From NCBI GenBank assembly GCA_043821445.1, contig JBDRCT010000040.1, positions 26,745 through 90,744 on the forward strand: 64,000 nt of DNA, given 5' to 3'. The notes beneath the pieces were generated by a model, which was not told the DNA's origin, searched no databases, and saw only the letters and a list, made by a program, of their open reading frames with translations. The translations under genes and the position numbers were made by a program. Shown piece by piece: positions 16,487 through 51,198 of the stretch. The number at the start of each line of letters is the position of its first letter. The stretch's first letter is position 1. The stretch comes from Candidatus Omnitrophota bacterium. GTDB lineage: Bacteria; Omnitrophota; Omnitrophia; Omnitrophales; Aquincolibacteriaceae.

Positions 16487-16491
16487 CAACC

Positions 16492-18186: not shown

Positions 18187-18307
18187 CGTGTGCGGCATCG
18201 ATCGCAGACCGAAGCCGCCTCTTGGCGAGCCGCGCCTGATTTTCAGGGCGGGACTACAGACCACTGACTACGGTAGACCGATGGGGGAACGGAGGGCGCA
18301 ATGAAGC

Positions 18308-18345
18308 GTACCCTGCAAAGACCCGGTCTTTGCACCACAGACGAT
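18308..18345. repeat. left copy of a ~38-bp direct repeat containing a perfect 10/1/10 palindrome TGCAAAGACC-C-GGTCTTTGCA
   Basis: gtaCCCTGCAAAGACCCGGTCTTTGCACCAcagacgat; palindrome at 18314..18334. Confidence 0.85.
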
Positions 18346-18616
18346 AGTTCACGCGCAAGCGGTTCATCATTCCTGGCCAAAGGATGGGGGTTCATCCTAG
18401 AACAGATCCCCGTTCGCTAATCAACCCTGCTGGATATTATCGCGACACCGAGCAGGACCGATCTAGGCCTTTATGAACTCGGGATTGTATGATGTTCCTT
18501 GTAAATGCTCTTAGAGGACATCTATGGGAAATAGAGTGCAACGCGAGGCAGCACCCTTCGAGAACTCTGACGAGAAATTGTTCTAGCCGACTTTGAGCAG
18601 AAGCCTATTCTGCCTG

Positions 18617-18688
18617 TTGACAATTGACGATGGCATGATAGACTTTCATTGTAAAATAGTTACTCAATAGTAATCCAATGGGTTACTT
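18617..18688 (+). promoter_or_regulatory. putative promoter/operator of AbiEi-1
   Basis: TTGACA at 18617 (TTGACAATTGACG). TAGACT-like -10 at about 18639. GTTACT ... AGTAAT ... GTTACT repeats precede the ATG. Confidence 0.4.
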
Positions 18689-19489
18689 ATGAAGAATATA
18701 AATACATTCAGCGGTTTGGGCCCCAAGGAGGCGGAATTCGTAGCTCGTCTTTCCTATGAAAAAAAGACCATCGTCACGGCGGATGAAATAGACAAATTTC
18801 TTCCGGCCGACTTCAAGTATCGCAGGCAATTTGTTTATACTCTGAAACAGAAGCGGGTACTCACACCCATCAAAGGCGGGGTGTATATTTTTACGCCGCT
18901 TGACTCGATCGCCACGGGAACACGCGTTCATGAGTTCCTGATCCCCGCCGTCTTTCTTCCGCGTGGGAACTATTACCTCGGATACTCGGTGATGTTCAAC
19001 TATTACGGGTTCACCGAACAGATCTTCCAGACGGTCTATGTGATCAATACGTCCCTGTGCAAAGAAAAGATGGTGTGCGGCATCGCGTATAAATTCGTTA
19101 AAGTCCCGGAAAAACGCATGTATGGGATCGAGAAGATCACGGTCCAGGGCGTGACCGTCCCCGTCAGTTCGAAGGAAAGGACTTTGGTGGATCTCATTTA
19201 TTTCAATAAACCGGTTGGCGGAGTTATCCCGGCGGTTCAGATCCTTAAGGACACCGTGAAGCGGAAACAGTGCGATATCGGAAAGCTTGTGGAAATGGCG
19301 TCCCGTTTTCCCAATATTACGGCGCGTAAAAGAATCGGCGTAACGCTTGAAGGGCTTGGTGTCGGATGTGCGGTCCTGAAGCCGCTTATAAAGAGTGTCG
19401 AGAAAACAGCGATCAATTCGCTGGAGGATTCCCGTAAAGGTTCTCTGAACACAACATGGAGGGTCATCGTTGGTGATCCACGAAAATAA
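18689..19489 (+). CDS. AbiEi-family antitoxin / transcriptional regulator
   Basis: About 266 aa with an N-terminal wHTH-like segment. Encoded immediately upstream of, and overlapping, a nucleotidyltransferase AbiEii-like gene. Own TTGACA promoter. Confidence 0.65.
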   Translation: MKNINTFSGLGPKEAEFVARLSYEKKTIVTADEIDKFLPADFKYRRQFVYTLKQKRVLTPIKGGVYIFTPLDSIATGTRVHEFLIPAVFLPRGNYYLGYSVMFNYYGFTEQIFQTVYVINTSLCKEKMVCGIAYKFVKVPEKRMYGIEKITVQGVTVPVSSKERTLVDLIYFNKPVGGVIPAVQILKDTVKRKQCDIGKLVEMASRFPNITARKRIGVTLEGLGVGCAVLKPLIKSVEKTAINSLEDSRKGSLNTTWRVIVGDPRK

Positions 19490-20351
19490 AGACGATTTTC
19501 TGAATGTTCTGAAGCAGACGTCGGCGCAGACCGGGTTCACTCTGTCGCTGATCGAAAAGGACTATTACCTGACGCTTGTTCTATCGCGTCTTCAGGATCT
19601 CAGTTCCAATCTGATCTTCAAGGGCGGGACATGTCTCAATAAGGTCTATTATTCCTATTACCGGCTGAGCGAAGACCTTGACTTCAGCATGCGGCTTCCT
19701 GATGGGAAGGTGACTAAGACCGTGCGGAGCCGGTCCATGAAACCCATCAAGGAGAAGATAGGGGAGTTTGCCGCGCAGTTTGGAATGAAACTCGATACCA
19801 CAAAGAACCCCGGCCGGAACGAATCAAAACAATACGTTTTTGATCTCGCTTATCCTTCTGTAGTACTGCCTCAGGAAGCAAAAATAAGGTTTGAGGTTGG
19901 CCTACGGTTCAACCCGGTTTGCCCGGTTGAAAAACATGAAGTTCAGCATCAATTTACGCATCCTTTTACCGGGGAACGTTTGTTTGACGGCGGTGAGGTG
20001 AATTGCCTGGGCCTCAAAGAGCTGGTCTCCGAAAAGCTGCGTGCTGCCGCTCTCCGTAAAACCATCGCGCCCCGTGATTTTTATGATCTTGATTTCATTC
20101 TACGGAAAAAATTTGACCTCACGGATCGCGAAGTGCTGGAGCTTTTCCGGAAGAAACTCGCGGAAGACGGCGGAGATGCGGATATCACCAGGTACCGGGT
20201 GAATCTTGGAAGACGGCCCGAGGAGATCAAAGACATGAGTGGCAGGATCAAGGAGGAGCTCTTCGAAGTTCTGACCGCTGAAGAGCGCAAGAACTTTGAC
20301 CTTGATACTGCGATCGCACGGCTGAACCAGGCATTTTCCAAGTTGGCGTAA
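19470..20351 (+). CDS. AbiEii/AbiGii-family nucleotidyltransferase toxin
   Basis: IFKGGTCLNKVY ... RLSEDLDFS, the hallmark NTase motif. 293 aa. Confidence 0.8.
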   Translation: MVIHENKDDFLNVLKQTSAQTGFTLSLIEKDYYLTLVLSRLQDLSSNLIFKGGTCLNKVYYSYYRLSEDLDFSMRLPDGKVTKTVRSRSMKPIKEKIGEFAAQFGMKLDTTKNPGRNESKQYVFDLAYPSVVLPQEAKIRFEVGLRFNPVCPVEKHEVQHQFTHPFTGERLFDGGEVNCLGLKELVSEKLRAAALRKTIAPRDFYDLDFILRKKFDLTDREVLELFRKKLAEDGGDADITRYRVNLGRRPEEIKDMSGRIKEELFEVLTAEERKNFDLDTAIARLNQAFSKLA

Positions 20352-20404
20352 TGTCCGGAATATCGAAACATTCGACCTAGGACAAGTGTGGATAATACCG
20401 GACG

Positions 20405-20442
20405 GTGCCCTGCAAAGACCCGGTCTTTGCACCATGGAGGAT
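20405..20442. repeat. right copy of the ~38-bp direct repeat (same palindrome)
   Basis: gtgCCCTGCAAAGACCCGGTCTTTGCACCAtggaggat. Together with 18308 it brackets the AbiE cassette. Confidence 0.85.
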
Positions 20443-20467
20443 GGTGCTTTGCAGCGGTAAATTCTGC

Positions 20468-20534
20468 TTGACAGTGCTTTTTTGTAATGTAATACTTATT
20501 ATAGACAATGTAATACATTTAAAAGGAGCCCGTT
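20468..20534 (+). promoter_or_regulatory. putative promoter/operator of the vapB-like gene
   Basis: TTGACA at 20468. Direct repeat ATGTAATAC x2 (about 20488 and 20508). GGAG SD. Confidence 0.4.
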
Positions 20535-20762
20535 ATGAAACGAAAAGGATTGACTTCCGTTCAGCTAAGGCCAAAGATCGCAAAAATGGTTGCGCTCTTG
20601 ATGAACCGGGAGGGCATGACAAAAACCGAGATCATTAATGAGGCGCTTCGCCGATTTCTTCTTGAACGGGAATTTCAAGGGGTCCGGGAAAAGCTCATTC
20701 CGTATGCCCAAGCCAAGGGCATTTATACCGAAGACGATGTTGACCGGGTCCTTGGTCCATGA
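20535..20762 (+). CDS. small antitoxin-like DNA-binding protein (VapB/RHH-like)
   Basis: 75 aa. MTKTEIINEALRRFL is a ribbon-helix-helix-like segment. ATGA overlap with a PIN-domain gene downstream. Confidence 0.6.
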   Translation: MKRKGLTSVQLRPKIAKMVALLMNREGMTKTEIINEALRRFLLEREFQGVREKLIPYAQAKGIYTEDDVDRVLGP

Positions 20763-21157
20763 GGGTGGTTTTTGACACCAATATCCTTCTCTCGGCTTTT
20801 TTGACCAAGGATGGAGTTGCCCAGCAGCTTTTTGCAAGAGTTATTGCGGGGCACGAGATCCTTGCTTCCGAGTATATCCTTAAGGAGGCTGTTGAAAAAT
20901 TATCCGGCAAACTGAAGGTCCCAGAACGGGAAACAGGCTCCTTTATGCGTTATGTCCGGACCCGTATGACCGTGATCGACCTCTCGGGGAAAACGAGGCG
21001 GGTTGATTTTGAGGACCTTAAAGACGTTCCGATACTTCATCTGCTTGAATTCGCCGGGGTCCATTATTTCGTTACAGGCGATAAAAAACTCCTTGCTCTT
21101 AAAAAGCACCGGCAGACCCTCATCTTAAGTCTCCGAGAAGCCCTCGAGCTTTTATGA
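20759..21157 (+). CDS. vapC: PIN-domain ribonuclease toxin
   Basis: MRVVFDTNILLSAF is the conserved PIN N-terminus. Acidic residues (D, E, D) distributed as in VapC. 132 aa. Confidence 0.8.
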   Translation: MRVVFDTNILLSAFLTKDGVAQQLFARVIAGHEILASEYILKEAVEKLSGKLKVPERETGSFMRYVRTRMTVIDLSGKTRRVDFEDLKDVPILHLLEFAGVHYFVTGDKKLLALKKHRQTLILSLREALELL

Positions 21158-22053
21158 GTACTTCGTCCTTTAAAGCCCGCATTGTGATCCTGAACTATAA
21201 CGGGGAAGAGATGCTGGCGAAGTGTCTGCCAAGCATTGCTGAAGCGGTGCGCTGTGCTAAGACACCGACTGCTGTCACGATCTTAGACAATCTGAGCATA
21301 GATCAAAGTGAGTCCTATGTCCGGAAGAATTATCCCGAGATGGAGTTTGTGAAGGCGCCGGAAAACCTAGTGCTTTGCTCCTACAATGATTACCTCAAGA
21401 CGGTCTCTGAGCCGATCGCGATCCTGCTCAATAACGATATCCAGGTCGACAAGAACTTCATTGATCCGATGGTTGAAAAATTTTCAGGCGATCCGAGGAC
21501 TTTCCTGGTCGCTCCGCGCTGCCATAGCTTTGACAAAGCGAATGTGGAAGCGGTGGATGCTAGAATGAAAATCCGGTTCGGGATGCCATGGATTAGCGCA
21601 CGTTATCCGGGATACGAGGCTCATACGATGATCCCATCTAAGACCGTTTCATCCGGATTCGGCGCTTTTTCGAAAGAAAAATTCTTGGAACTCGGAGGCT
21701 ATGACCGGAGGTACTTACCCGGGATCATGGAGGATGTGGATCTGTGCCTTAAAGCCCAACGCTCGGGATATCATCTTTATTACGAGCCGCGCAGTTTGGT
21801 CTATCATATGGGACAGGTAAGTTTTAAAAAAGCTTACACGAGTCTTCGGCGTGAAACGATCGCTTGCCGTAATACATTCCTTTTCGCATGGAAGAATTTC
21901 CGAGGTTTCGGATTTTGGTTTCGGCACATTCTTTTCTTACCGCTTTGGATGGTTTTTTCTCTTTTGAGGCTCCGCCCGGAATTTCCGCTCGGACTTTTCG
22001 AAGCATTGCGCCATGGTTCCGGTCACCGCGACATCCTTCGAGGCATTCATTGA
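21154..22053 (+). CDS. GT2 glycosyltransferase
   Basis: RIVILNYNGEE ... ILDNLS ... DxD-type motifs. Start ATG overlaps the vapC stop (ATGA). Confidence 0.75.
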   Translation: MSTSSFKARIVILNYNGEEMLAKCLPSIAEAVRCAKTPTAVTILDNLSIDQSESYVRKNYPEMEFVKAPENLVLCSYNDYLKTVSEPIAILLNNDIQVDKNFIDPMVEKFSGDPRTFLVAPRCHSFDKANVEAVDARMKIRFGMPWISARYPGYEAHTMIPSKTVSSGFGAFSKEKFLELGGYDRRYLPGIMEDVDLCLKAQRSGYHLYYEPRSLVYHMGQVSFKKAYTSLRRETIACRNTFLFAWKNFRGFGFWFRHILFLPLWMVFSLLRLRPEFPLGLFEALRHGSGHRDILRGIH

Positions 22054-22102
22054 AATAACGGCCCGTGTTTTGATAGACTAGCGCGTCGTTACATCATCAT
22101 CG

Positions 22103-22972
22103 TTGGGCAACAATGGAGTTTTTTCAGGTATGACGTTGAATTCCACAGAAGCCAATGTCCCGGCATCCAAGAAATTCTGGAAACGCCAGGAGGCGGGCTT
22201 TGTCTATGACCGCCAATTCCAGAATAAGGTCGGCTGGTATATTGATTGCTCGGAGACGTTCCCGCTGTTGGAACTGGTACAATCTCTGAAGAACATCAAG
22301 GTCCTGGACGTCGGGTGCGGGACCGGGCGGTTCCTGGTGAGATTCCCCGAGCCGAATACGCTGTTCGGCGTAGATCTTTCCGAGAGCATGCTCCAGACCA
22401 CGAAAACGAAATTGACTCGGGCGTCCCTTTTGGCGGCCTCTGCTACCGAGCTTCCTTTTCCTGATCGCTCTTTTGACCTCGTTTATTCCGTTCGTGTAAT
22501 CCAACATATTCGCAATCAACAAAAAATGATCACGGAACTTTCGCGGGTTTGCAAACCGGGTGGGCGTGTGATCCTCGTGGCCTATAATACCTGGTCGCTC
22601 TTGAATCTCTACAAGCAGATCCGCATGAGCTGGGTGGGACGGATTTTGAACATACCGTTCGGTTTTATCCTTAAAGAAAAGTCTTTTTGGGGAAAATGGG
22701 GATTTGAGTATGACAATTACTGCTCCATCACTGAGATCGAACGAATGATGAAAAGGTCCGAGCTTCAACCTTACTACTCCTGCGGCCTTTCATCGGGGAT
22801 GCCTTGGTTCCTCCAGAGTTTCTTCATCGGGAAGATCTTGCATACGATTGCGCCGTGGCTTCTAAGCGGGCTTTTAAATCTCGCCCTTTTTCTGGATCGG
22901 ACGTTGGCGCGAATGGGCCCGTTCAAATACTTCATGGACCTGGTCCTGGTCGTCGGGGAAAAGCCGCGATGA
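22103..22972 (+). CDS. class I SAM-dependent methyltransferase
   Basis: VLDVGCGTGRFL motif I; DLVYSVRVIQH motif II/III region. Confidence 0.75.
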   Translation: MGNNGVFSGMTLNSTEANVPASKKFWKRQEAGFVYDRQFQNKVGWYIDCSETFPLLELVQSLKNIKVLDVGCGTGRFLVRFPEPNTLFGVDLSESMLQTTKTKLTRASLLAASATELPFPDRSFDLVYSVRVIQHIRNQQKMITELSRVCKPGGRVILVAYNTWSLLNLYKQIRMSWVGRILNIPFGFILKEKSFWGKWGFEYDNYCSITEIERMMKRSELQPYYSCGLSSGMPWFLQSFFIGKILHTIAPWLLSGLLNLALFLDRTLARMGPFKYFMDLVLVVGEKPR

Positions 22973-24471
22973 AGCTTCAGGTGCTTTTGAATGCTGCCGT
23001 TCCTGCTTGGCTTCAGATCCTGGATCAGGAAAAGATATCTTACGCGATTTGGGAAGAAGACAGTGTCTTGCCCGTCGGTGAAAACCGATATCCGGTGCTT
23101 ATTCTCACAAAAAAAGAGCCCCGCCGTAAGTCCATGATCCAGGCTCACCTCAAACAGGGCGGGGCCGTCATCGTGGACCTAGACACGCGTTCAGAGGTTC
23201 GGGAACAGGATTTCCCAGGGCGTATTTTTTCTTTGGATATCAGCATTGCGGATATCTGTGAAAGTTGGGCCAGCCGGCGAAAGGATTTTTTCTTTAATGG
23301 TTTTACGGTTTCCGAGACCGTTGCGGCCCAAAAAAAATCCCGATCCAGGGAGGTAGTGAGATGCGCCGTTCAAAAAGCATTCTGGTGTCAGGGACTGCCT
23401 TATGTTCATCTTTGGTATTATCCTCGGGGATATCGAAGCGTTTTTTCGTTCCGCTTTGACATGGATGAATATGATCCTGACGGTCATTCTGCTTTTTGCC
23501 GGCTGCTTGAAAAATATCGAGGGTCGGTAAGTTGTTTTGCCTGTCTCAAGACTTTCGAGTCTCTTGAAGACGAGCTTGGAAAGGTGGTCCGTTCCGGTGT
23601 TGAGGTGGGGTATCATGGGTATATCCATCATATTTATCAAGACTACGCTCAGAATAAACTCGACTTTGAACAGGCGGAGCGGTTATTGCAAAAACATCCT
23701 CGTTCCGTAAAAAGCTTCGCGGGCCCGCACGGCGTCTGGCATCCGACGCTCCAGCGCATTCTCGAAGAACGGAATTATATCTATAGTTCCGAGTTCGGTC
23801 TCGATTATGATAATTTTCCATTTTTTCCGATCGTTCATGGAAAGACATCGAGCGTCACTCAAATCCCTACACATCCCGTTTGTGAAGGAGCGTTTTTTGA
23901 ACGGTATCCTTATCAGGAGTCCATGCTTCGGGATTATTTTAATGCTGTTATTGACCATAAAATCCGGAAGGAAGAGCCAGCCTTGCTTTTTGGGCATCCC
24001 GACCATCGGATTGGAAGGCATCCGGAAATTTTCACGAACATTATGGAAAAAATCGACGAATATCAAGGCGTGTGGAAAACCGAGTTCCGACAGTGGGCAG
24101 GATGGTGGAAGAAAAGGCATGATATTTCCTTCCTTCCTCAGTACGGTAACGGCACGGTCAGGATAGAGGGCTTGGAGAGAGTCGAAGATTGCACGGCTGA
24201 AATCCTTTTTCAGGACGGGCGGCGGGAATTCAGCACCGACTGGTTCCTGCCGATATTTGACAAAGCAAAGAGCGATTGCGTTTCTCCTGTCGTCGAAACG
24301 TTAACCCAGCAAAGTTATTTTAAAAAAATAAAATTCGGACTTAAAAATTGGCTTGATTGGGAAACGAAAACTCCGCCAGAGCTTCTGAGAATTACAGGAG
24401 TCCGAACGCTGGTGAAGAGAGTGTTTCGGGCTTTAGCGGGCTGTTTTATGCAAAAGGCGAAAAAAATATGA
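22969..24471 (+). CDS. hypothetical protein, possibly polysaccharide-deacetylase (NodB/CE4)-like
   Basis: ATG 22969 overlaps the upstream stop (ATGA). FRFDMDEY and GYHGYIHH loosely resemble NodB motifs 1 and 2. 500 aa. The assignment is weak. Confidence 0.3.
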   Translation: MKLQVLLNAAVPAWLQILDQEKISYAIWEEDSVLPVGENRYPVLILTKKEPRRKSMIQAHLKQGGAVIVDLDTRSEVREQDFPGRIFSLDISIADICESWASRRKDFFFNGFTVSETVAAQKKSRSREVVRCAVQKAFWCQGLPYVHLWYYPRGYRSVFSFRFDMDEYDPDGHSAFCRLLEKYRGSVSCFACLKTFESLEDELGKVVRSGVEVGYHGYIHHIYQDYAQNKLDFEQAERLLQKHPRSVKSFAGPHGVWHPTLQRILEERNYIYSSEFGLDYDNFPFFPIVHGKTSSVTQIPTHPVCEGAFFERYPYQESMLRDYFNAVIDHKIRKEEPALLFGHPDHRIGRHPEIFTNIMEKIDEYQGVWKTEFRQWAGWWKKRHDISFLPQYGNGTVRIEGLERVEDCTAEILFQDGRREFSTDWFLPIFDKAKSDCVSPVVETLTQQSYFKKIKFGLKNWLDWETKTPPELLRITGVRTLVKRVFRALAGCFMQKAKKI

Positions 24472-25208
24472 GCCTGAGTGCGGTATTGATCACGCTTAAC
24501 GAAGAAAGGAAGCTTCCGGAATGCTTGCGTCGGCTAGCTTTTGCTGACGAGATTGTTGTTGTGGATTCTTGCAGTGAAGACCAGACCGTTCAAATTGCTG
24601 AAAAAGCCGGCGCTAAAGTCTTCCAGCGTACATTCGATTCTTTTTCCGGGCAGAAGAATTATGGGATCCAGATGGCCGGAGGAGACTGGATCCTGCTCAT
24701 TGATGCTGACGAGCTTGTCACCCCGGAGTTGCGCGATGAAATACTAAGCGCTATTCGATCTCAGGAATATCGTAGCGCATTTACGCTTCGGCGGGTTAAT
24801 CAGATTTTTGGTGCGGTGTTGCGTCACGGTGCGAGTGGTGAAGACCATCCTATTCGGCTGGTCCGTAAAGGGGCAGGGGTTTTTGAAGGATTGGTTCATG
24901 AAAAACTGCGCATCGAGGGGGAGATTGGGGACCTTCGCGGGGAGTTAACGCACATTACCTATCAAACGTTGGAAGAATATTTTTTAAAATTTAACCAGTT
25001 CTCTTCCTTGGATGCCCGAGAATTCCTGCGCCAAGAAAGAAAGCCGCCTTCTTGGCTTCAGATTTTGGTGAAGCCTGCCGCTGAGTTCTTTTTTTATTAT
25101 ATCGTGAAAGCAGGCTTTCTGGACGGTTGGCCAGGTTTCCAGTATCAGGTTCTCTCCTCGTTCTATGTTTTTATAAAGCATGCTAAAGCGAAGAATCTAA
25201 AAAAATGA
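24468..25208 (+). CDS. GT2 glycosyltransferase, WaaE/KdtX-like (LPS core-type)
   Basis: MSLSAVLITLNEERKL ... VVVDSCSEDQT ... LLIDADE. Paralog at 59297. ATGA overlap upstream. Confidence 0.75.
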   Translation: MSLSAVLITLNEERKLPECLRRLAFADEIVVVDSCSEDQTVQIAEKAGAKVFQRTFDSFSGQKNYGIQMAGGDWILLIDADELVTPELRDEILSAIRSQEYRSAFTLRRVNQIFGAVLRHGASGEDHPIRLVRKGAGVFEGLVHEKLRIEGEIGDLRGELTHITYQTLEEYFLKFNQFSSLDAREFLRQERKPPSWLQILVKPAAEFFFYYIVKAGFLDGWPGFQYQVLSSFYVFIKHAKAKNLKK

Positions 25209-26659
25209 ATCCTTTATTTTTAAAACTAAAAAACATCGCTGCTTTTGAGTGGGCCATTTTTTTTCTGATGGCTTTGTGGACCGCGCTGACGTTTTCCATC
25301 GCCCTAACCGAGATCACATTCGTTTGCGCTTTGATCTGCTGGGTCGGATGGCATATTCAGCAAAAAAAAGGCATCTGCCAAAATGCGCCGGCAGGAGGGA
25401 AAATCGACTGGGCATTCTGGATGCCGCTCGCACTCTTTTTTGTGTGCGTCCTGAGCTCATTTTTCACCTCGGAATATCCAAAACAAAGCCTCCGGGGCCT
25501 ATACAAGATCGCAAAGCCGCTTCTAGCCTTCATCATGGCGATCGATCTCTTCAGGGACACAAGATCCCAGAAACGCTTCGACGGTATTTTTTTAGCAACC
25601 TTTCTTTTGGTGACGATCGATTGTTCGATCCAATACGCCTTCGGGAAGGATATCCTCCGGGGTTTCGCGGCCGAGCAATCCGCGGCAGGGATACGGCTCA
25701 TAGGCCCTTTCGGCAATTTCGCAAAAATGGCCACCTACCTCGTATTGGTGATCCCTGTTTTTGGGATGCGTTTCTGGAGTGATTACACGCGATCGGAACA
25801 GCGCAAAAGATCTTTTTATAGTCTGGCTCTTGCGATAGCCGGCCTTGTGCTTCTCTATCTGACCCGTTGCCGCGGCCCTGTGGTGGCGCTTGCTTTTAGT
25901 TTTGGAATACTCTTCATTTACAAGCGCTGGTTCAAGGTGGTGGGGATCGCTTTGTTGCTCGGCCTTGCTCTGTTGGCGGTCGTGCCGCGAGGAGTGATCA
26001 TTCATGCGAATAAAGATTCTAGAGAGCAGTCTTTCGTCGAACGGCTTTGTCTTTGGCAGCGAGCTTTCGACGTGATCAAAGCCAAACCGTTAACGGGCAC
26101 GGGAATTAATACCTATGACAAGGCGCATGCAAAATACGACACGCAACAGCGCAAAAACCTTGCGTCGTTACGGGGGCCAACAACCAGTGTCCGGCAAGAG
26201 CAGAATGGCTCTGTTAGTTTCATAACAGGGGAAACGATTTACACATCAGACGTAAAACAAACCAATATTCGGCTTGGCGATAAAAAGTACAACCTTTTTA
26301 GAGACGCAAAGGGCGAATATTATATCTATGATACTTTACTTGTTCGCGGTTATTACGCCCATAACGGCTATCTTCAACTCGCGGCGGAGATCGGGCTTCC
26401 CGGGATTTTCTGTTTTCTTTGGTTCCTTTTCATGTTCTTCCGGAAAGTCCTGGGAGGCCTGGGGGCTATTCGAGGCTCTCCCGAGGAATATACGCGTTTG
26501 GGAATTCTGACGGGCCTCCTGGCCTTTTTGATCTATGCCATTGGTGATAACAATCTTCAAAGTCCGCCTTCCCTGATGTTTTTCTGGTTCTCGGCGGGCA
26601 TTTTGATGGCAAGGCAAAGCGCCGCTCCGTCGGAAATCATTTCATCAAAAAAACCATAA
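25205..26659 (+). CDS. O-antigen ligase / polymerase family membrane protein (Wzy_C domain)
   Basis: About 10 TM helices. AHNGYLQLAAEIGLPG Wzy_C/WaaL signature. ATGA overlap upstream. Confidence 0.7.
   Translation: MNPLFLKLKNIAAFEWAIFFLMALWTALTFSIALTEITFVCALICWVGWHIQQKKGICQNAPAGGKIDWAFWMPLALFFVCVLSSFFTSEYPKQSLRGLYKIAKPLLAFIMAIDLFRDTRSQKRFDGIFLATFLLVTIDCSIQYAFGKDILRGFAAEQSAAGIRLIGPFGNFAKMATYLVLVIPVFGMRFWSDYTRSEQRKRSFYSLALAIAGLVLLYLTRCRGPVVALAFSFGILFIYKRWFKVVGIALLLGLALLAVVPRGVIIHANKDSREQSFVERLCLWQRAFDVIKAKPLTGTGINTYDKAHAKYDTQQRKNLASLRGPTTSVRQEQNGSVSFITGETIYTSDVKQTNIRLGDKKYNLFRDAKGEYYIYDTLLVRGYYAHNGYLQLAAEIGLPGIFCFLWFLFMFFRKVLGGLGAIRGSPEEYTRLGILTGLLAFLIYAIGDNNLQSPPSLMFFWFSAGILMARQSAAPSEIISSKKP
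26530..26628. repeat. left copy of a ~95-bp diverged direct repeat (native 3' end of the Wzy-like gene)
   Basis: gatctatgccattggtgataacaatcttcaaagtccgccttccctgatgtttttctggttctcggcgggcattttgatggcaaggcaaagc. Confidence 0.85.
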
Positions 26660-26704
26660 GTGGCACAGTCTTAGGAATTCAAGGTCGACTCTGTTGCGTT
26701 GGGC

Positions 26705-26768
26705 TTGACAATCTATAACTCATAATTTAACATATAAGTATACAAAACAGTATACTTATAGGTGGAAT
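26705..26768 (+). promoter_or_regulatory. putative promoter/operator of AbiEi-2
   Basis: TTGACA at 26705. After a 17-nt spacer, TAACAT as a -10 candidate. Perfect inverted repeat AAGTATAC-aaaaca-GTATACTT at 26735..26757. AGGTGG SD. Confidence 0.45.
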
Positions 26769-27326
26769 ATGAACCATTCAGAGCGTTTTAAAATACTCAT
26801 GGAATCCGGCCGGACGGTGTTTACGCCTCTGGACATGCGCATGTTATGGCGGGTAAATACGCTGAACGCCAAGATCAGTATCGTGCGTATGGTAGAAAAA
26901 GGTCTTGTGGTCCGGTTGGCCACAGGCTTTTACGCCCTGAATGACCGTTACAACCGGTACGAGTTTGCCAATAGGATCCTGTCGCCCTCCTATGTGTCCT
27001 TCCAGTCCGCGCTTTTTCATGCGGGAATCAATTTTCAGGCCCGTGACGAGATCGGATCGGTGGCCCTGCGGGATCATCGGAAGAAGGTCGGGAATACGCT
27101 CTATACCCATGCGGCCATGAAACAAGATCTTTTTTTTAATATCAAAGGGGTCGTGACGCGTGAGGGGGTAGCGATGGCATTGCCCGAGCGCGCGATCCTG
27201 GACAGCTTCTACTTCGGGTATCTTCCGGACATTGATGACGCTTCAAAGCTGAATAAGACATTTCTTGAGGAACTCAGCGCTCTTTACCCGAAAACGGTCC
27301 AAAAAAAGGTGAAGGGGCTTCTATGA
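26769..27326 (+). CDS. AbiEi-family antitoxin / regulator (second copy)
   Basis: 185 aa. Precedes and overlaps (ATGA) an AbiEii-like gene. Own TTGACA promoter with a palindromic operator. Confidence 0.6.
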   Translation: MNHSERFKILMESGRTVFTPLDMRMLWRVNTLNAKISIVRMVEKGLVVRLATGFYALNDRYNRYEFANRILSPSYVSFQSALFHAGINFQARDEIGSVALRDHRKKVGNTLYTHAAMKQDLFFNIKGVVTREGVAMALPERAILDSFYFGYLPDIDDASKLNKTFLEELSALYPKTVQKKVKGLL

Positions 27327-28018: not shown

Positions 28019-28034
28019 AAAATTATGACTTTCT

Positions 28035-28124
28035 GATCGATGCCTTCGGCGATAACAATCTCCAAAGTCCGCCCTCCCTGATGTTTTTCTGGTTCTCGGC
28101 GGGCATTTTGATGGCAAGGCAGAA
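28035..28124. repeat. right copy of the ~95-bp direct repeat, downstream of AbiE pair 2
   Basis: gatcgatgccttcggcgataacaatctccaaagtccgccctccctgatgtttttctggttctcggcgggcattttgatggcaaggcagaac. About 8 mismatches against the left copy. Confidence 0.85.
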
Positions 28125-28141
28125 CAATCAAAAGGCGCTCC

Positions 28142-29002: not shown

Positions 29003-29047
29003 CTCGTGATGATGACTGCGTAAAAGATTATAGGGAAGGAAAAAAGC

Positions 29048-31077: not shown

Positions 31078-31110
31078 ATACTTATATTCCAAAAGGACTC
31101 AAGAGCCCTA

Positions 31111-32591: not shown

Positions 32592-32665
32592 ATTCAAAGA
32601 TATATGTGTCTTCCGATTGTGTTGGCGGAAGAAGGCATTCCGTATGATTCGCAGGCAATTGCGAT

Positions 32666-33313: not shown

Positions 33314-33338
33314 TAATTTCAATAAGGGAGGCTCGTTC

Positions 33339-35163: not shown

Positions 35164-35181
35164 TAATCGGATGAATCCCTC

Positions 35182-37184: not shown

Positions 37185-37187
37185 ACG

Positions 37188-38642: not shown

Positions 38643-38737
38643 GGTTATGCTGCAAGAGTAATAAGCTTCCGTATGCATGTGAGATGGGTAGCCGTCGAAT
38701 TTGAAATTCATTTAAAAAATATCATAGAGAGTCAAAG

Positions 38738-48519: not shown

Positions 48520-49588
48520 AGACAGACTCAATAGCAGGATGGTGAATGGCGGAATGAGGATTAAATCACCGGCCCGTCAATATGCGCATCTCCGGAAGGC
48601 CATTGCCGGCGAGCTTCTGTCCGGGGCCGAGCGGGTCCGGCGGTCTTACCGGGAAGAGGTCGTACGCACCGCCTGGAACATCGGGCGGATCCTGCGGGGG
48701 ACCCTGGGACTCGAGGACCGGCCCAGCGCCGAAAATGCCGCGCTCGTCAGACGCCTCTCTAAGGACTTCGGTAAGTCTGACTCTTTCTTCTACGATGCTG
48801 CCAAATTCCACCGGTTGTATCCCTCGAAAGCACCAGTCGCGCTCAGTTTGTCGCATTATTCTCTTTTGATCCGCCTGGAAGATCCGGGGGAGCGTCTCGC
48901 CCTTGAAAAAAAGGCCATCGCCGAAGACATTAATGCCAAAGATCTCCGGATGTACACGCGCCTCGATCCATGGCAAGCCCCTGCTGACGGAAAGAGGGTT
49001 GTCCTCACCGCCCCGCGCGGGCGTCTTTATCATTATCGCGCGTCGAACGCACCCAAGGATGGGCGGGTCTTGATCGACATCGGGTTTGGGATCGAACGAG
49101 ACGTACGCTTTAATAGCAAAAAAAGTTTCCACTCAGGGCTTATTGTGCGGGCAGTCAGGACCGTTCCTGGCTTGAAGAGTAGCCCCATGGAGAATTATTC
49201 TGCAAAGATAGCGCCTTTCGACAAAAACCGGCTCTATACCTATGCCGCCTCGCTTGTGCGAGTGATCGACGGGGATACGCTGATCGCGCGCGTCGATCTA
49301 GGTTTCCGGACATGGATCACCCAGACGTTCCGCCTCCGGGGGATCGATGCGCCCGAGATGACCTGCGCTTTAGGACAGAAAGCAAAGGCCGAGGTAAAGG
49401 CCCGTTTGGCTCCCTGCGCCTGTCTTGTGATCAAGACTTACAAACAGGAAAAATACGGCCGTTTTCTAGCGGATGTGTTCTACCTGAAAGGAGTTGAGGA
49501 CCGAGACCGGATCCTGCGTGAGGGCGCTTTTTTGAACCAGGAGCTTTTGGATGAGAGGTTGGCGGTGCCGTACGAAGAGGAAGGCTAG
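48500..49588 (+). CDS. DUF1016_N (YhcG N-terminal)-like domain fused to a staphylococcal-nuclease (SNase/thermonuclease) domain
   Basis: N-terminal WNIGR ... LSLSHYSLLIRLEDPGERLALEKKAIAEDINAKDLR matches the recalled DUF1016_N pattern. C-terminal VIDGDTL ... RLRGIDAPE ... EKYGRFLADV SNase motifs. Visibly GC-rich. Confidence 0.55.
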   Translation: MNRCCRRDRLNSRMVNGGMRIKSPARQYAHLRKAIAGELLSGAERVRRSYREEVVRTAWNIGRILRGTLGLEDRPSAENAALVRRLSKDFGKSDSFFYDAAKFHRLYPSKAPVALSLSHYSLLIRLEDPGERLALEKKAIAEDINAKDLRMYTRLDPWQAPADGKRVVLTAPRGRLYHYRASNAPKDGRVLIDIGFGIERDVRFNSKKSFHSGLIVRAVRTVPGLKSSPMENYSAKIAPFDKNRLYTYAASLVRVIDGDTLIARVDLGFRTWITQTFRLRGIDAPEMTCALGQKAKAEVKARLAPCACLVIKTYKQEKYGRFLADVFYLKGVEDRDRILREGAFLNQELLDERLAVPYEEEG

Positions 49589-49848
49589 AAGCACGAGATC
49601 CTTCTCCGCCTTTGGCGGATCAGGATGACGGGAAGAGCAAAACGGACTGCGGGTTGATGGAGGAGGGCGGTGCCGTACTTGTTCCTTTGAACACGGTGCC
49701 GTCACTTTATTTGGAATGACGTGTACGGCGACCGTACGAAGAGAAGGGCTTGGGCCGCACCTTGGGCGGAACGACAGGCTGGAGACCCAATGAACACGAC
49801 CATGAAAAAACAACTTGCAAAGTTGCTTTTTCATGGTAGCATTTAGGT

Positions 49849-51012
49849 ATGATAAAGCGACAGGCGATCCTGAAACAGATACGCGCGGCTTTTCGCTATG
49901 GCCGTGTCGTGGCGATCCTGGGGCCCAGGCAGTGCGGTAAGACGACCCTGGCGCGGCAATTCGTTCCGCCTCATTCCGAAAACTATTTCGATCTCGAGGA
50001 TCCCGTAAGTCTCGCGCGTTTGTCGGAACCTATGACCGCCTTATCCGGCCTTCGCGGAACTGTGGTTCTCGATGAGGTCCAACTGGAGCCAAAGCTCTTC
50101 TCCGTCCTTCGCGTTTTAGCAGACCGGAAACCTCTTCCCGCACGGTTTTTGATCCTTGGCAGCGCGTCTCCGAGTCTCGTCAAGCATTCGGCCGAATCCT
50201 TGGCCGGGCGATTGGCCCGCGTTGAAATGGGAGGATTCTGTGTCAGGGAAGTGGGCTACAAGAACGACCTCAAGCTTTGGCTTCGCGGGGGATTCCCGCT
50301 CTCGTTCCTCGCCAAGACCGACGCGGACAGTTTTGCGTGGCGGAAAGATCTGATCATGAGTTTTATCGAAAAAGATCTTCCGGCTCATGGAATGTCACTG
50401 CCTCCCGTTACGCTTCTACGTTTTTGGACGATGCTCGCTCATTATCACGGCCAGATCTGGAACGCGGCGGAACCGGCGCGATCTCTCGGGATCAGCGAAA
50501 TGACCGTGAAGCGCTACCTGGATATACTGTCCGGACTTTTCCTGGTGCGTCAGTTGCAGCCCTGGCATGCTAATATCCAAAAAAGGCAAGTTAAAACCCC
50601 TAAAATATATATCCGGGATACCGGGATCCTGCATCAGTTGTTGGGGATTCGTACTAAGGAAGAGCTTCTCTCTCACCCAAAATGCGGCGCTTCCTGGGAA
50701 GGATTTGTGGTCGGTGAGGTGATCCGGTCCCTTCAACCCGATGAAGCTTTTTTTTGGGCGACCCATAACGGCGCCGAGCTCGAACTCATCATTAAAAAAG
50801 ACGGGAAGCTCTACGGGATCGAATGTAAACGCCGGGACGCGCCCGCCATGAGCGCATCGATGAAAATAGCACTGAAAGATCTAAGGCTGGAACGTATGGC
50901 TGTGATCTATCCCGGGACCCGGCGCTATCCTTTGTCCGGACAGGTCGAGGTCGTACCGTTTTCTTTTGTTCGAGGCGGGATGCGCGCTGTCTTTCCGCCG
51001 CACAAATCCTAG
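49849..51012 (+). CDS. COG1373-type AAA+ ATPase (AAA_14 + DUF4143), second copy
   Basis: Walker A ILGPRQCGKTT. C-terminal ELELII ... GIECKRR PD-(D/E)xK-like. TTGCAA ... TAGCAT promoter-like sequence immediately upstream. Confidence 0.75.
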   Translation: MIKRQAILKQIRAAFRYGRVVAILGPRQCGKTTLARQFVPPHSENYFDLEDPVSLARLSEPMTALSGLRGTVVLDEVQLEPKLFSVLRVLADRKPLPARFLILGSASPSLVKHSAESLAGRLARVEMGGFCVREVGYKNDLKLWLRGGFPLSFLAKTDADSFAWRKDLIMSFIEKDLPAHGMSLPPVTLLRFWTMLAHYHGQIWNAAEPARSLGISEMTVKRYLDILSGLFLVRQLQPWHANIQKRQVKTPKIYIRDTGILHQLLGIRTKEELLSHPKCGASWEGFVVGEVIRSLQPDEAFFWATHNGAELELIIKKDGKLYGIECKRRDAPAMSASMKIALKDLRLERMAVIYPGTRRYPLSGQVEVVPFSFVRGGMRAVFPPHKS

Positions 51013-51021
51013 GCAAAATCG

Positions 51022-51198
51022 ATGAACGACAGGATGAAGAAAAAACACTCGCATACCACGATAGCACGAAAAGCTGCGGCTCTGGCGGCTCTTAAGGCGA
51101 TCCAGGCTGCGTCCGTCCGGAAGGGACTGGACAAGATGACGATGGATGAGATCGATGCTGAGATCCAAGAGGTCCGCAGGGAGCGTCGCTGTCTGTAG
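51022..51198 (+). CDS. small ORF (58 aa), basic N-terminus and charged helical C-terminus; possible DNA-binding/antitoxin-like protein
   Basis: ATG 51022 to TAG 51198, too short for the ORF track. MNDRMKKKHSHTTIARKAAALAALKAIQAASVRKGLDKMTMDEIDAEIQEVRRERRCL. Confidence 0.3.
   Translation: MNDRMKKKHSHTTIARKAAALAALKAIQAASVRKGLDKMTMDEIDAEIQEVRRERRCL

What the first reader, a model, noticed from the sequence alone, without database searches (positions are those of the whole stretch)
18187..51198. Recurrent embedding of toxin-antitoxin, Abi and ATPase-nuclease cassettes inside a single co-directional glycan-biosynthesis operon
Five separate selfish or defence units are interleaved with glycosyltransferase genes on the same strand. 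Several are translationally coupled to them: the vapC stop overlaps the GT2 start at 21154 as ATGA, and the ATPase stop overlaps the GT2 start at 47548 as ATGA. Each TA unit also carries its own TTGACA promoter. Phage receptors are usually surface glycans, so co-location and co-transcription of abortive-infection genes with glycan-variation genes could be a linked 'receptor plus immunity' diversity hot spot. It could also simply reflect that this locus is recombinogenic.
Basis: inference. Interest (0 to 1): 0.65.

Follow-up and report, generated by a model that had tools for sequence, protein, structure and literature searches.

The report
Defence cassettes inside a glycan locus
A 64-kb surface-sugar gene cluster of an uncultivated Omnitrophota bacterium has eight small toxin-antitoxin, abortive-infection and nuclease units between its genes, and relatives show these are come-and-go passengers of a recombination hot spot, not fixed parts of the pathway.

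Summary
On the + strand sit AbiEi/AbiEii (18689-20351), VapB-like/PIN (20535-21157), a second AbiEi/AbiEii (26769-28018) and two AAA_14+DUF4143 ATPase-nucleases (PADLOC candidate PDC-S01; 46358-47551, 49849-51012). Both ATGA overlaps exist. The three TA units have the best TTGACA promoters in their region. I add three units: a DUF1016_N-SNase nuclease (48500-49588), a Phd-antitoxin remnant (51022-51198) and a 23S_rRNA_IVP element (56214-56651).

The window comes from a Candidatus Omnitrophota MAG. Its conserved frame (PMT2-DUF2079-GT2-GT2-Wzy ... carbamoyltransferase-SxtJ-GT9) recurs in about 14 metagenomic lineages. In the minimal relative, Wzy overlaps the carbamoyltransferase, so window 26612-51196 is a lineage-specific variable segment. 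The junction before GT2_a is empty in five lineages and holds three unrelated PIN pairs, sometimes with AbiE or the nuclease, in six.

Three cassettes are flanked by 41-93-nt diverged duplicates of neighbouring gene ends, differing mostly at synonymous sites. That indicates entry by recombination with other alleles. The ATPase/GT2 ATGA is inherited from the old Wzy/GT2 junction.

Verdict: accessory cassettes in an O-antigen-like hypervariable island. A functional "receptor plus immunity" link remains untested.

The parts
14465..18186 (+). Conserved left frame of the glycan locus: PMT_2 (14465-16486) and DUF2079 (16492-18186).
   Evidence: Pfam. Orthologues are 71% and 83% identical in L026, and the same order recurs in L027, L030, L033, L037-L039 and L041.
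18208..20464 (+). AbiE-1 insertion segment. It holds the promoter at 18617-18644, AbiEi 18689-19489, AbiEii 19470-20351, and 41-nt direct repeats (88% identical) at 18308-18348 and 20405-20445 that contain the hairpin TGCAAAGAC-CCG-GTCTTTGCA.
   Evidence: PADLOC AbiEi 5e-43 and AbiEii 2.7e-38. Repeats (z 16.9). blastn homology to L026 stops at 18207 and resumes at 20465, and L026 has 62 bp there instead.
20468..21157 (+). VapB-like/PIN_3 type II TA. It comprises the promoter 20468-20496 with two AATGTAATAC repeats, VapB-like 20535-20762, and PIN 20759-21157. There is an ATGA overlap between the two genes and another between PIN and GT2_a.
   Evidence: Orthologues sit at the same junction in L026 (VapB 98.7% identical, PIN 89.4%) and L042 (88% and 76.5%). 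dN/dS is 0.02 for VapB and 0.11 for PIN.
21154..26659 (+). Conserved GT2_a (21154-22053), GT2_b (24357-25208) and Wzy_C (25205-26659). A methyltransferase and a polysaccharide deacetylase (22103-24471) lie between the two GT2 genes.
   Evidence: GT2_a is 66-75% identical in about 14 lineages. The MT and deacetylase are present only in the window and L035.
26524..26616 (+). Left copy of the duplicated Wzy_C 3' end. It is part of the functional gene.
   Evidence: 93 nt, 92% identical to 28029-28121 (z 57.5). The differences are 5 synonymous and 2 non-synonymous codons.
26704..28018 (+). AbiE-2 minimal cassette. It comprises the -35 TTGACA at 26705, operator palindrome 26734-26759, AbiEi 26769-27326 and AbiEii 27323-28018.
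   Evidence: PADLOC 1.4e-27 and 1.1e-43. Homology to cassettes 84-87% identical in four other contexts starts at the -35 hexamer and ends at the stop codon.
28015..28148 (+). Displaced remnant of a Wzy_C 3' end (44-codon ORF). Its start overlaps the AbiEii stop (ATGA) and its stop overlaps the TauE start (ATGCTTGA).
   Evidence: Sequence. This right copy is 84-85% identical to the Wzy 3' ends of L027 and L029, against 76-78% for the left copy.
26612..51196 (+). Lineage-specific variable segment between Wzy_C and the carbamoyltransferase. It holds TauE, Wzm/Wzt, phosphodiesterase, GT2s, MTs, DegT, B12-rSAMs, YfhO, a truncated RgpF, a second Wzy_C and the cassettes.
   Evidence: blastn to L026 ends at 26611 and resumes at 51197. 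In L033/L034 the Wzy stop overlaps the CarbT start, and in L043 the gap is about 45 bp. GC is 0.43-0.47 at 31-46 kb, against 0.55-0.58 in the right flank.
46203..46275 (+). Left copy of the duplicated Wzy_C(b)-tail/GT2-start junction. It leaves a decaying GT2 5' remnant ORF at 46219-46353.
   Evidence: (z 27).
46358..47551 (+). ATPase_1: AAA_14 + DUF4143 (PD-(D/E)XK), PADLOC candidate PDC-S01. The last 9 or so codons (IGSENSTS*) come from the duplicated Wzy tail (LGSENHAS*).
   Evidence: The closest relatives, 84% and 83% identical in Omnitrophota MAGs L001 and L002, align only to residue 385-386.
47525..48519 (+). Right copy of the duplication (47525-47598) and the functional GT2_e (47548-48519). 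The ATGA overlap is inherited from the Wzy/GT2 junction.
48500..49588 (+). DUF1016_N-like + SNase nuclease, a YhcG-type N-terminal domain with a staphylococcal-nuclease domain. It is a further mobile or defence-type unit.
   Evidence: Pfam SNase, PADLOC PDC-S02 7e-8 on residues 19-150, and PDB thermonuclease matches. Homologues in L001 and L002 score DUF1016_N at 7e-20 and 7e-24 plus SNase. A 62% identical homologue lies between VapBC and GT2_a in L042.
49799..51012 (+). ATPase_2 (PDC-S01), 49849-51012, with a 39-nt palindrome at 49799-49837 that ends 11 nt before the ATG.
   Evidence: palindrome z 9.5. No flanking duplication was found (z 2.3).
51022..51198 (+). C-terminal remnant of a Phd/YefM-type antitoxin, with no toxin gene left. 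It marks the right edge of the variable segment.
   Evidence: tblastn with the L043 antitoxin gives 84% identity over 25 aa, E 2e-8. The L043 protein scores PhdYeFM and is followed by a PIN_3 protein.
51280..55055 (+). Conserved right frame: carbamoyltransferase, SxtJ, DUF5989-like and GT9.
   Evidence: Identity to L026 is 94.5%, 80% and 85%.
56169..56726 (+). 23S_rRNA_IVP gene (56214-56651) with flanking inverted GTTAC/GTAAC arrays. It is inserted between two GT4 genes that overlap in L033.

Best explanation
The window is one co-directional cell-surface glycan locus (Wzy-type plus Wzm/Wzt-type genes) of a Candidatus Omnitrophota bacterium. It behaves like an O-antigen locus, with a conserved frame and hypervariable content.

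The TA, Abi and nuclease units are accessory passengers. Each is a compact self-expressed module, running from its promoter/operator to its stop codon, that has landed at a gene boundary of the operon.

They enter and spread by recombination with diverged alleles of the same or similar loci. One end is anchored by homology in a neighbouring gene end and the other end is joined illegitimately. This resembles homology-facilitated illegitimate recombination, or Campbell-type integration of a circle. It leaves a second, diverged copy of the gene end beside the cassette.

Insertion at a stop/start overlap leaves operon continuity intact, which I infer is why such insertions are tolerated. A remnant ORF bridges AbiEii_2 to TauE. 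ATPase_1 reads into the old Wzy tail and inherits its ATGA overlap with GT2_e.

Once in, TA units probably persist because they are addictive and resist replacement, and defence genes because they are useful.

Shown here: gene identities, accessory status, junction polymorphism and duplication footprints. Inferred: the recombination mechanism, read-through transcription, and any selective benefit.
For: Identity of the locus and organism:
- Pfam, PADLOC and NCBIfam results.
- A 100% identical Wzy_C is annotated in an NCBI Omnitrophota MAG, MFH1800869.1.

Conserved frame and variable centre:
- Orthologous loci L026-L046.
- In L033/L034, Wzy overlaps CarbT.
- The homology breakpoints with L026 are at 26611 and 51197.

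Accessory status:
- AbiE-1 replaces 62 bp of L026.
- The junction before GT2_a is empty in L030, L032, L037, L038 and L041.
- The same junction is occupied by VapB/PIN (window, L026, L042), Phd-like/PIN (L027), AbiE + Phd/PIN (L043) and PIN/Phd remnants (L040). The three PIN types are only 25-27% identical to each other.
- Other junctions of the frame hold HTH-Fic (L042), a MazE-type TA (L043) and the IVP gene (window).

Insertion footprints:
- Direct duplications flank AbiE-1, AbiE-2 and ATPase_1, with z of 16.9, 57.5 and 27. None flanks VapBC, ATPase_2 or the MT/deacetylase pair.
- The ATPase relative in L002 is flanked by two SNase 3' ends (z 24).
- Nucleotide differences between copies fall at codon positions 1, 2 and 3 as 3, 0, 5 (Wzy) and 4, 1, 8 (L002 SNase), and include a CGC/AGG Arg pair. 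Pooled 7, 1, 13 against a uniform expectation gives chi-square 10.3, p about 0.006 (my arithmetic). The copies therefore diverged as functional genes in different lineages before they were juxtaposed.

Linked exchange:
- Identity to L026 is 92-97% in VapB, 84-90% in PIN and 82-86% in the first 260 nt of GT2_a, then falls to 57-73%.
- dS is 0.29 and 0.47 for VapB and PIN, against 1.9 for GT2_a and PMT2.

Minimal modules:
- AbiE-2 homology across four contexts starts at the -35 hexamer and ends at the stop codon.

Inherited coupling:
- C-termini.

Precedents in the literature:
- HFIR was proposed for T6SS effector-immunity arrays and Rhs orphan 3' ends (PMC5361080).
- Hypervariable polysaccharide cassettes and TA/RM cargo were reported in Omnitrophota hypervariable regions (bioRxiv 10.64898/2026.05.20.726742 and 10.64898/2026.06.07.730766).
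Against: - The relatives are 66-75% identical in GT2_a. They are different species or genera, not strains, so turnover rates within a population are unknown.
- No genome-wide background is available. I cannot show that cassette density in this locus exceeds the rest of the genome.
- Several related glycan loci (L029, L030, L032, L033, L038) show no cassette in 13-21 kb.
- VapBC, ATPase_2, the SNase gene and the IVP gene have no flanking duplication.
- The D8 hairpin is not found in any of the 72 fetched loci, so its origin is unexplained.
- The mechanism is inferred from footprints only. A 20-nt perfect repeat around the AbiE cassette in L071/L072 could point to a different, site-specific route.
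- The codon-position test rests on 21 differences.
- The source is a MAG contig, and no reads were available to verify the joins.
Confidence: 0.72

Rival explanations
1. This is a functional 'receptor plus immunity' module. Abortive-infection and defence genes are selected to sit in, and be co-transcribed with, the glycan genes that make the phage receptor. Receptor variants and matching immunity are then inherited and regulated together.
For: - At least 12 units in the window, L026, L027, L042 and L043 are co-directional and lie at gene boundaries.
- No convincing intrinsic terminator follows the cassettes.
- The PIN/GT2_a ATGA overlap is conserved in L026.
- VapBC and the 5' part of GT2_a share a high-identity tract.
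- One AbiE-2 relative also lies in a sulfation/glycan cluster (L067-L070).
Against: - The same cassette families occur at 84-87% identity in non-glycan contexts.
- Many orthologous glycan loci carry none.
- The whole window is on one strand and GC skew rises throughout, so co-orientation is partly generic.
- One ATGA overlap is an insertion by-product.
- The cassette types at a given junction are unrelated between lineages, which does not suggest a co-adapted pair.
Confidence: 0.12
2. The TA units are domesticated. They act as addiction modules that protect adjacent glycan segments from deletion or allelic replacement, as autoregulated stress-responsive internal promoters for downstream glycan genes, or as both.
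For: - VapBC is retained at the same junction in three lineages under purifying selection (dN/dS 0.02 and 0.11). It is more conserved than its glycan neighbours.
- Each TA has a strong promoter with operator-like repeats directly upstream of glycan genes, with no terminator between them.
- PIN is translationally coupled to GT2_a in the window and in L026.
Against: - VapBC is absent from at least eight lineages with the same frame, so it is dispensable for the pathway.
- Purifying selection is also expected for a purely selfish TA.
- There are no expression or stability data.
Confidence: 0.25
3. The cassettes are moved by a dedicated site-specific or transpositional system acting in trans, such as an integron-like, tyrosine-recombinase or long-TSD transposase system. 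On this view the flanking repeats are att sites or target-site duplications.
For: - Direct repeats of 41-93 nt flank three cassettes.
- A palindromic hairpin lies in the AbiE-1 repeats.
- 36-46-nt repeats flank PDC-S01 genes in L006, L011 and L020.
- A 20-nt perfect repeat flanks the AbiE cassette in L071/L072.
Against: - No integrase or transposase domain appears in any + strand ORF of the window, and there is no tRNA.
- The three repeat pairs share no sequence with one another.
- Two of them are coding gene ends whose copies differ mainly at synonymous sites. A fresh target-site duplication would not show that pattern.
- The repeats in L006 and L011 are the cassette's own operator-like palindrome.
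Confidence: 0.08
4. This is an assembly artefact. The MAG contig is a chimera of co-occurring strains joined at short shared sequences, and that creates apparent insertions and duplications.
For: - The source is a metagenome-assembled genome.
- The duplicated segments contain identical stretches of up to about 44 nt.
- Close AbiEii homologues mostly lie on contigs of 1-2 kb, which is typical of regions that break assemblies.
Against: - Independent assemblies show the same architecture: VapBC-GT2_a in L026 and L042, and AbiE plus PIN before GT2_a in L043.
- The reading frames across the joins are coherent. Examples are the remnant ORF that bridges to TauE and the ATPase that reads into the Wzy tail.
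- The L002 assembly shows the same kind of footprint.
Confidence: 0.04

Closest known systems
O-antigen/capsule-type hypervariable glycan loci ('replacement' flexible genomic islands, glycotypes)
   Same: - There is a conserved syntenic frame.
- The centre ranges from 0 to 24.6 kb between lineages.
- GC is lower in the centre.
- Glycan alleles have saturated dS (1.6-1.9) next to low-dS frame genes.
- Pseudogene remnants of swapped genes are present.
(. Concept from PMC4898812 and PMC11898729 as listed, and for Omnitrophota.)
   Different: Here small TA/defence modules are added inside the operon at gene boundaries. This 'additive' behaviour occurs inside a 'replacement' island, without a tRNA, integrase or IS element.
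Defence islands and core defence hot spots
   Same: - Several unrelated defence or candidate-defence genes cluster together: AbiE twice, PDC-S01 twice, and a YhcG-like nuclease.
- They turn over at fixed positions between conserved genes.
(Concept: PMC10250203, listed.)
   Different: - The hot spots lie within a biosynthetic operon, not between housekeeping operons.
- The cassettes are interleaved singly with glycan genes rather than forming one contiguous island.
HFIR-type displacement arrays (T6SS effector-immunity arrays, Rhs/CDI orphan 3' ends)
   Same: - A conserved gene segment acts as a one-sided recombination anchor.
- The incoming module leaves the old, diverged gene end behind as an orphan copy (PMC5361080).
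   Different: - Here the anchors are ordinary glycan or nuclease gene ends, and the cargo is TA/defence modules.
- Arrays of successive orphans are not seen. There is one remnant per site.
TA cassettes in chromosomal integrons
   Same: - The cassettes are co-directional and promoter-bearing in an otherwise single-direction array.
- A stabilising role is plausible (from my own knowledge of the superintegron literature).
   Different: - There is no IntI, attI or attC.
- The neighbours are overlapping operon genes conserved in synteny.
- The flanking repeats are gene ends.
AbiE (type IV TA/abortive infection), VapBC (type II TA), PDC-S01 (PADLOC candidate)
   Same: - Domain content, gene order, 4-nt overlaps and operator-like repeats match the families.
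- PDC-S01 is described as an ATPase fused to a PD-(D/E)XK domain. [quoted passage not shown] DUF4143 is mentioned in the PD-(D/E)XK survey PMC3424549 (passage not read).
   Different: Nothing in the proteins themselves is unusual. ATPase_1 has a chimeric C-terminus captured from Wzy.

Membership tests
AbiE type IV toxin-antitoxin / abortive infection | An AbiEi (wHTH antitoxin/regulator) gene is followed by an AbiEii (DUF1814 nucleotidyltransferase) gene in one operon. | tested here: met
   Pair 1: PADLOC AbiEi 5e-43 and AbiEii 2.7e-38, Pfam AbiEi_1 and AbiEii. Pair 2: PADLOC AbiEi 1.4e-27 and AbiEii 1.1e-43. The genes overlap by 20 nt in pair 1 and 4 nt in pair 2.
AbiE type IV toxin-antitoxin / abortive infection | The promoter is autoregulated through inverted repeats bound by AbiEi. 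| tested here: inconclusive
   A perfect 10+10 palindrome, ATAAGTATAC-N6-GTATACTTAT, lies between the promoter and the RBS of pair 2. It is conserved in L066-L072. Binding was not tested.
AbiE type IV toxin-antitoxin / abortive infection | Toxicity is neutralised by the antitoxin, and the system gives phage abortive infection. | not testable with these tools
   This needs expression and phage assays.
VapBC type II toxin-antitoxin | A PIN-domain toxin with conserved acidic residues is preceded by a small overlapping antitoxin gene. | tested here: met
   PIN_3 scores 32.7 bits (cut-off 27) and TIGR00305 scores 30.6 bits (cut-off 29.15). The sequence shows D6 (VFDTN) and D108 (TGD). The 75-aa upstream ORF overlaps by ATGA. 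Its family assignment is weak, with VapB/PSK hits below cut-off.
PDC-S01 (PADLOC phage-defence candidate) | It is a single gene encoding AAA_14 ATPase + DUF4143 (PD-(D/E)XK). | tested here: met
   PDLC04790 scores 3e-103 and 4e-83. Pfam gives AAA_14 + DUF4143.
PDC-S01 (PADLOC phage-defence candidate) | It has demonstrated anti-phage activity. | not testable with these tools
Integron cassette array | An IntI integrase, attI, and attC sites at cassette 3' ends. | tested here: not met
   No integrase domain was found in any + strand ORF scanned. The repeats flanking cassettes share no sequence and are gene ends. The Rfam scan was empty.
O-antigen-like hypervariable glycan island | Conserved flanking genes with a variable gene set between them in related genomes. 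| tested here: met
   The frame is shared by about 14 lineages. The centre is 0 bp (L033), about 45 bp (L043), 1.4 kb (L042), 7 kb (L026) and 24.6 kb (window).
O-antigen-like hypervariable glycan island | It makes a surface polysaccharide that serves as a phage receptor. | not testable with these tools
   The gene content (Wzy_C, Wzm/Wzt, GT2/GT4/GT9, Bac_transf) is compatible with this. No phage or structural data exist.
Defence island / defence hot spot | Defence genes are statistically enriched relative to the genome background, and content turns over at a fixed position. | tested here: inconclusive
   Turnover at fixed junctions is shown. Enrichment cannot be computed without the rest of the genome or phylum.

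The most novel reading that the evidence does not exclude
In Omnitrophota, gene boundaries of the surface-glycan operon are preferred landing sites where minimal promoter-to-stop TA/defence modules are exchanged together with adjacent glycan-gene segments. Exchange runs through gene-end homology anchors. Receptor alleles and abortive-infection or addiction modules would then travel as linked units. The autoregulated TA promoters would double as internal, stress-responsive promoters of the glycan genes downstream.
Probability: 0.15. Interest if true: 0.65.

Novelty: new variant of a known kind. Interest (0 to 1): 0.42.

Why it matters
This is a clear, coordinate-level example of how accessory TA and defence genes enter and persist inside a long biosynthetic operon without breaking it.
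- They insert at stop/start overlaps.
- They bring their own promoter.
- They leave diverged gene-end copies behind as a datable footprint.

It shows that a glycan 'replacement' island can also be an 'additive' hot spot in a poorly known, uncultivated phylum. The gene-end duplication signature with synonymous differences is a practical, searchable marker for recombination-mediated cassette acquisition in metagenomes.

It does not by itself show a functional link between phage-receptor variation and immunity.

Tried and rejected
- Exact-sequence look-ups of window proteins (DegT, VapB and the P0001 Wzy) found no positional record. The source contig could therefore not be read beyond the window.
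- The hairpin in the AbiE-1 repeats was searched in all 72 fetched loci and not found, so it is not a lineage-wide REP or att element.
- Flanking duplications were sought around VapBC, ATPase_2, the MT/deacetylase pair and the IVP gene. None was found.
- Rfam and tRNA scans of the whole window were empty. This rules out a tRNA-linked island and known RNA elements.
- The integron idea was rejected: no integrase, and no shared cassette-end motif.
- Simple post-insertion target-site duplication was rejected for the Wzy and SNase repeats because of the codon-position pattern.
- I first read VapBC as fixed and syntenic. Wider sampling showed it absent from eight lineages.
- The sigma-70 consensus scan as a whole is not above shuffles. 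I rely on conservation of the promoters in relatives instead.
- The minus-strand ORFs of 400-550 aa (for example 50881-52242, no Pfam hit) were treated as shadow ORFs.

Full report
**1. What is in the window**

Every sizeable gene of the 64-kb window is on the + strand, and cumulative GC skew rises throughout.

Pfam annotation gives a continuous cell-surface glycan cluster:
- Nucleotide-sugar enzymes, GT2 and GT4.
- PMT_2 and DUF2079.
- GT2, MT, deacetylase, GT2 and Wzy_C.
- TauE, Wzm/Wzt, phosphodiesterase, MTs, GT2, DegT, two B12-radical-SAM enzymes, YfhO, GT2, a truncated RgpF and a second Wzy_C.
- GT2, carbamoyltransferase, SxtJ, GT9, GT4, GT4, Bac_transf, GT2 and DegT.

The Wzy_C protein is 100% identical to NCBI MFH1800869.1 from a Candidatus Omnitrophota MAG, on a 93,859-bp contig. 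The closest ATPase relatives are also in Omnitrophota MAGs. There is no tRNA, no Rfam family and no integrase or transposase domain.

**2. The observation**

- AbiEi/AbiEii at 18689-20351.
- A 75-aa VapB-like ORF plus PIN_3 at 20535-21157.
- A second AbiEi/AbiEii at 26769-28018. Its antitoxin has no Pfam hit but scores PADLOC AbiEi at 1.4e-27.
- Two AAA_14+DUF4143 proteins at 46358-47551 and 49849-51012. They match the PADLOC candidate PDC-S01 at 3e-103 and 4e-83.

PDC-S01 is described as an ATPase fused to a PD-(D/E)XK domain. [quoted passage not shown]

Both ATGA overlaps are in the sequence.

The only 10-of-12 sigma-70-type matches in 18-29 kb lie directly upstream of the three TA units. 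Their reality is better supported by conservation:
- The VapB promoter with two AATGTAATAC repeats is conserved in L026.
- The AbiE-2 promoter plus a perfect palindrome is conserved in four other genomic contexts.

The ATPases lack TTGACA. ATPase_2 has a 39-nt palindrome ending 11 nt before its start.

I found three further non-glycan units.
- A DUF1016_N-like + SNase nuclease at 48500-49588. Homologues in L001 and L002 score DUF1016_N at 7e-20 and 7e-24.
- A remnant of a Phd-type antitoxin at 51022-51198, 84% identical over 25 aa to the antitoxin of a Phd/PIN pair in L043.
- A 23S_rRNA_IVP gene at 56214-56651.

**3. Comparison with relatives**

Wzy_C and GT2_a orthologues, 56-75% identical, were traced to their contigs. 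The frame PMT2-DUF2079-GT2_a-GT2_b-Wzy_C ... CarbT-SxtJ-DUF5989-GT9-GT4-GT4-Bac_transf recurs.

The segment between Wzy and CarbT varies widely:
- In L033/L034 the Wzy stop overlaps the carbamoyltransferase start.
- In L043 the gap is about 45 bp, and in L042 1.4 kb.
- In L026 it is 7 kb, containing DegT and radical-SAM pseudogene remnants.
- In the window, homology to L026 stops at 26611 and resumes at 51197. That leaves a 24.6-kb lineage-specific segment of lower GC.

Synonymous divergence from L026 is uneven: PMT2 1.9, DUF2079 0.9, VapB 0.29, PIN 0.47, GT2_a 1.9, Wzy 1.6 and CarbT 0.5. This is the pattern of an O-antigen-like island with old glycan alleles in a younger frame.

**4. The cassettes are accessory and the junctions are polymorphic**

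The boundary upstream of GT2_a is covered in 14 lineages.
- DUF2079 or PMT2 abuts GT2_a within 7-33 bp in five: L030, L032, L037, L038 and L041.
- Another glycan gene sits there in three: L033, L035 and L044.
- A TA sits there in six.

The six occupied junctions are:
- VapB/PIN orthologues in the window, L026 (98.7% and 89%) and L042 (88% and 76.5%). L042 also has a 62% homologue of the SNase nuclease there.
- A Phd-like antitoxin with PIN_3 in L027.
- AbiEii+AbiEi followed by Phd/PIN_3 in L043.
- PIN/Phd remnants in L040.

The three PIN types are 25-27% identical, and their antitoxins belong to different families.

AbiE-1 is unique to the window. It replaces 62 bp of L026.

Other boundaries of the frame carry an HTH-Fic gene (L042), a MazE-type pair (L043) and the IVP gene (window). 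All these units are co-directional with the operon. Because these genomes have long single-strand gene runs, that is only weak evidence of selection.

VapBC is the nearest to fixed, being present in three lineages with dN/dS of 0.02 and 0.11.

**5. How they got in**

Three cassettes are bracketed by direct duplications far beyond chance.
- A 41-nt intergenic hairpin-containing repeat surrounds AbiE-1 (z 16.9).
- The last 93 nt or so of the conserved part of Wzy_C surround AbiE-2 (92% identity, z 57.5).
- About 70 nt spanning the Wzy(b) tail and the GT2_e start surround ATPase_1 (z 27).

In L002, the 83%-identical ATPase lies between two SNase 3' ends (sequences).

The copies differ mostly at synonymous sites. 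The counts are 5 synonymous and 2 non-synonymous codons for Wzy, and 6 and 3 for SNase, including a CGC/AGG arginine pair. Nucleotide differences by codon position, pooled, are 7, 1 and 13. Chi-square against uniform is 10.3, p about 0.006 (my arithmetic). The two copies therefore evolved as functional genes in different lineages and were then juxtaposed. They are not fresh target-site duplications.

The right-hand Wzy remnant keeps the original stop/start overlap with TauE, and it is closer to the L027 and L029 alleles than the left copy is.

The simplest mechanism is recombination anchored by homology in one neighbouring gene, with an illegitimate join at the other end. Campbell-type integration of a circle carrying one repeat would give the same result. 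This is the mechanism proposed for T6SS effector-immunity arrays and Rhs orphan ends (PMC5361080). It is inferred, not shown.

The AbiE-2 module has sharp borders. Homology among four contexts, at 84-87% protein identity, begins at the -35 hexamer and ends at the stop codon. The contexts are a type III RM island, a TauE-PAPS reductase-CysNC/epimerase/Wzy cluster, LptFG-Dus, and this locus.

**6. The translational coupling**

- ATPase_1 aligns with its relatives only to residue 385-386. Its last residues, IGSENSTS*, are the duplicated Wzy tail, LGSENHAS*. Its ATGA overlap with GT2_e is the old Wzy/GT2 overlap.
- AbiEii_2's stop overlaps the start of a 44-codon Wzy-remnant ORF, whose stop overlaps TauE's start.
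- The PIN/GT2_a ATGA is conserved in L026.
- VapBC and the first 260 nt or so of GT2_a form one high-identity tract with L026, after which identity collapses. The TA and the adjacent gene start have thus been exchanged together.

Insertions at stop/start overlaps preserve operon continuity. I take this to be why they are tolerated, but read-through is untested. No convincing terminator follows any cassette.

**7. Interpretation**

The best-supported reading is that accessory, self-expressed TA/defence modules accumulate at gene boundaries of a hypervariable, recombinogenic glycan island.

The 'receptor plus immunity' idea is not excluded but has no specific support. The same cassette families occur outside glycan loci. 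Five related glycan loci have none within the DNA fetched. Enrichment over the genome background could not be measured.

A stabilising or internal-promoter role for the TAs is a reasonable, non-exclusive alternative.

Recent preprints already report hypervariable polysaccharide cassettes, and RM/TA cargo in hypervariable regions, in Omnitrophota. The finding is therefore a detailed new variant of known phenomena rather than a new kind of system.

**8. Limits**

- The relatives are distant, at species level or above.
- The source is a MAG contig, and no reads were available.
- The codon-position test rests on few sites.
- No expression or phenotype data exist.

Noticed in passing
window 56169-56726: A 145-aa 23S_rRNA_IVP (PF05635) gene is inserted between two GT4 genes that overlap directly in relative L033. 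It is flanked by inverted arrays of GTTAC(A)/(T)GTAAC (29-nt arms, 79% complementary). The MFE fold pairs these into a long stem enclosing the ORF, which is reminiscent of rRNA intervening sequences. The whole-region z-score is only -1.0.
   Followed up: partly
window 49799-49837; L001-L025 just upstream of the match: 17 of 26 PDC-S01 (AAA_14+DUF4143) genes from several phyla have a significant palindrome of about 30-40 nt ending 0-55 nt before the start codon. A typical example is TTGACAAATTCGGAATC-AGATTCCGAATTTGTCAA. It looks like a family-wide operator, and I am not aware of a description of it.
   Followed up: partly
L002 5840-5907 / 7166-7233; L006 5950-5985 / 7468-7503; L011 5937-5982 / 7173-7218; L020 5935-5977 / 7200-7241: 4 of 18 other PDC-S01 loci, from Omnitrophota, Elusimicrobia and Bacteroidia, have direct repeats of 36-68 nt bracketing the ATPase gene. 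In L002 the repeats are SNase 3' ends. In L006 and L011 they are copies of the upstream palindrome. This suggests single-gene mobility.
   Followed up: partly
window 48500-49588; L001 4686-5864; L002 8623-9654; L042 8875-9945: This is a DUF1016_N (YhcG N-terminal) domain fused to a staphylococcal-nuclease domain in place of the usual PDDEXK domain. It lies next to PDC-S01 in the window, L001 and L002, and next to VapBC in L042. It may be a mobile or defence nuclease in its own right.
   Followed up: partly
window 44288-44968: The RgpF-like ORF matches only positions 322-502 of the 503-position Pfam model and follows a 217-bp non-coding gap. It is a truncated glycan gene inside the variable segment.
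   Followed up: no
L026 11522-12197: Two small ORFs after Wzy_C are pseudogene remnants of a DegT gene (45% identical to window DegT residues 194-286) and of the radical-SAM gene 37188-38642 (71% identical to residues 417-478). They are deletion scars in a relative's variable segment.
   Followed up: yes
window 22103-24471; L035 1816-4172: The methyltransferase and polysaccharide deacetylase pair between GT2_a and GT2_b is present only in the window and L035 (86% and 73% identity). Glycan-modifying genes are thus also gained at operon boundaries. No flanking duplication was seen.
   Followed up: partly
window 18313-18337 and 20410-20434: A perfect 25-nt repeat contains the hairpin TGCAAAGAC-CCG-GTCTTTGCA on both sides of AbiE-1. 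It is absent from all 72 fetched loci, and its origin is unexplained.
   Followed up: yes
L042 17070-17990; L043 14970-15527: An HTH-Fic protein (L042) and a MazE-type antitoxin with an 89-aa partner (L043) are inserted in the conserved right frame, between SxtJ and GT9, of relatives.
   Followed up: partly
L071/L072 4947-4966 and 6889-6908: A perfect 20-nt direct repeat (ATTCCCTTCGCCCGCTCCAG) brackets the AbiE-2-type cassette between LptFG and Dus in another lineage. It may be a site-specific footprint.
   Followed up: no
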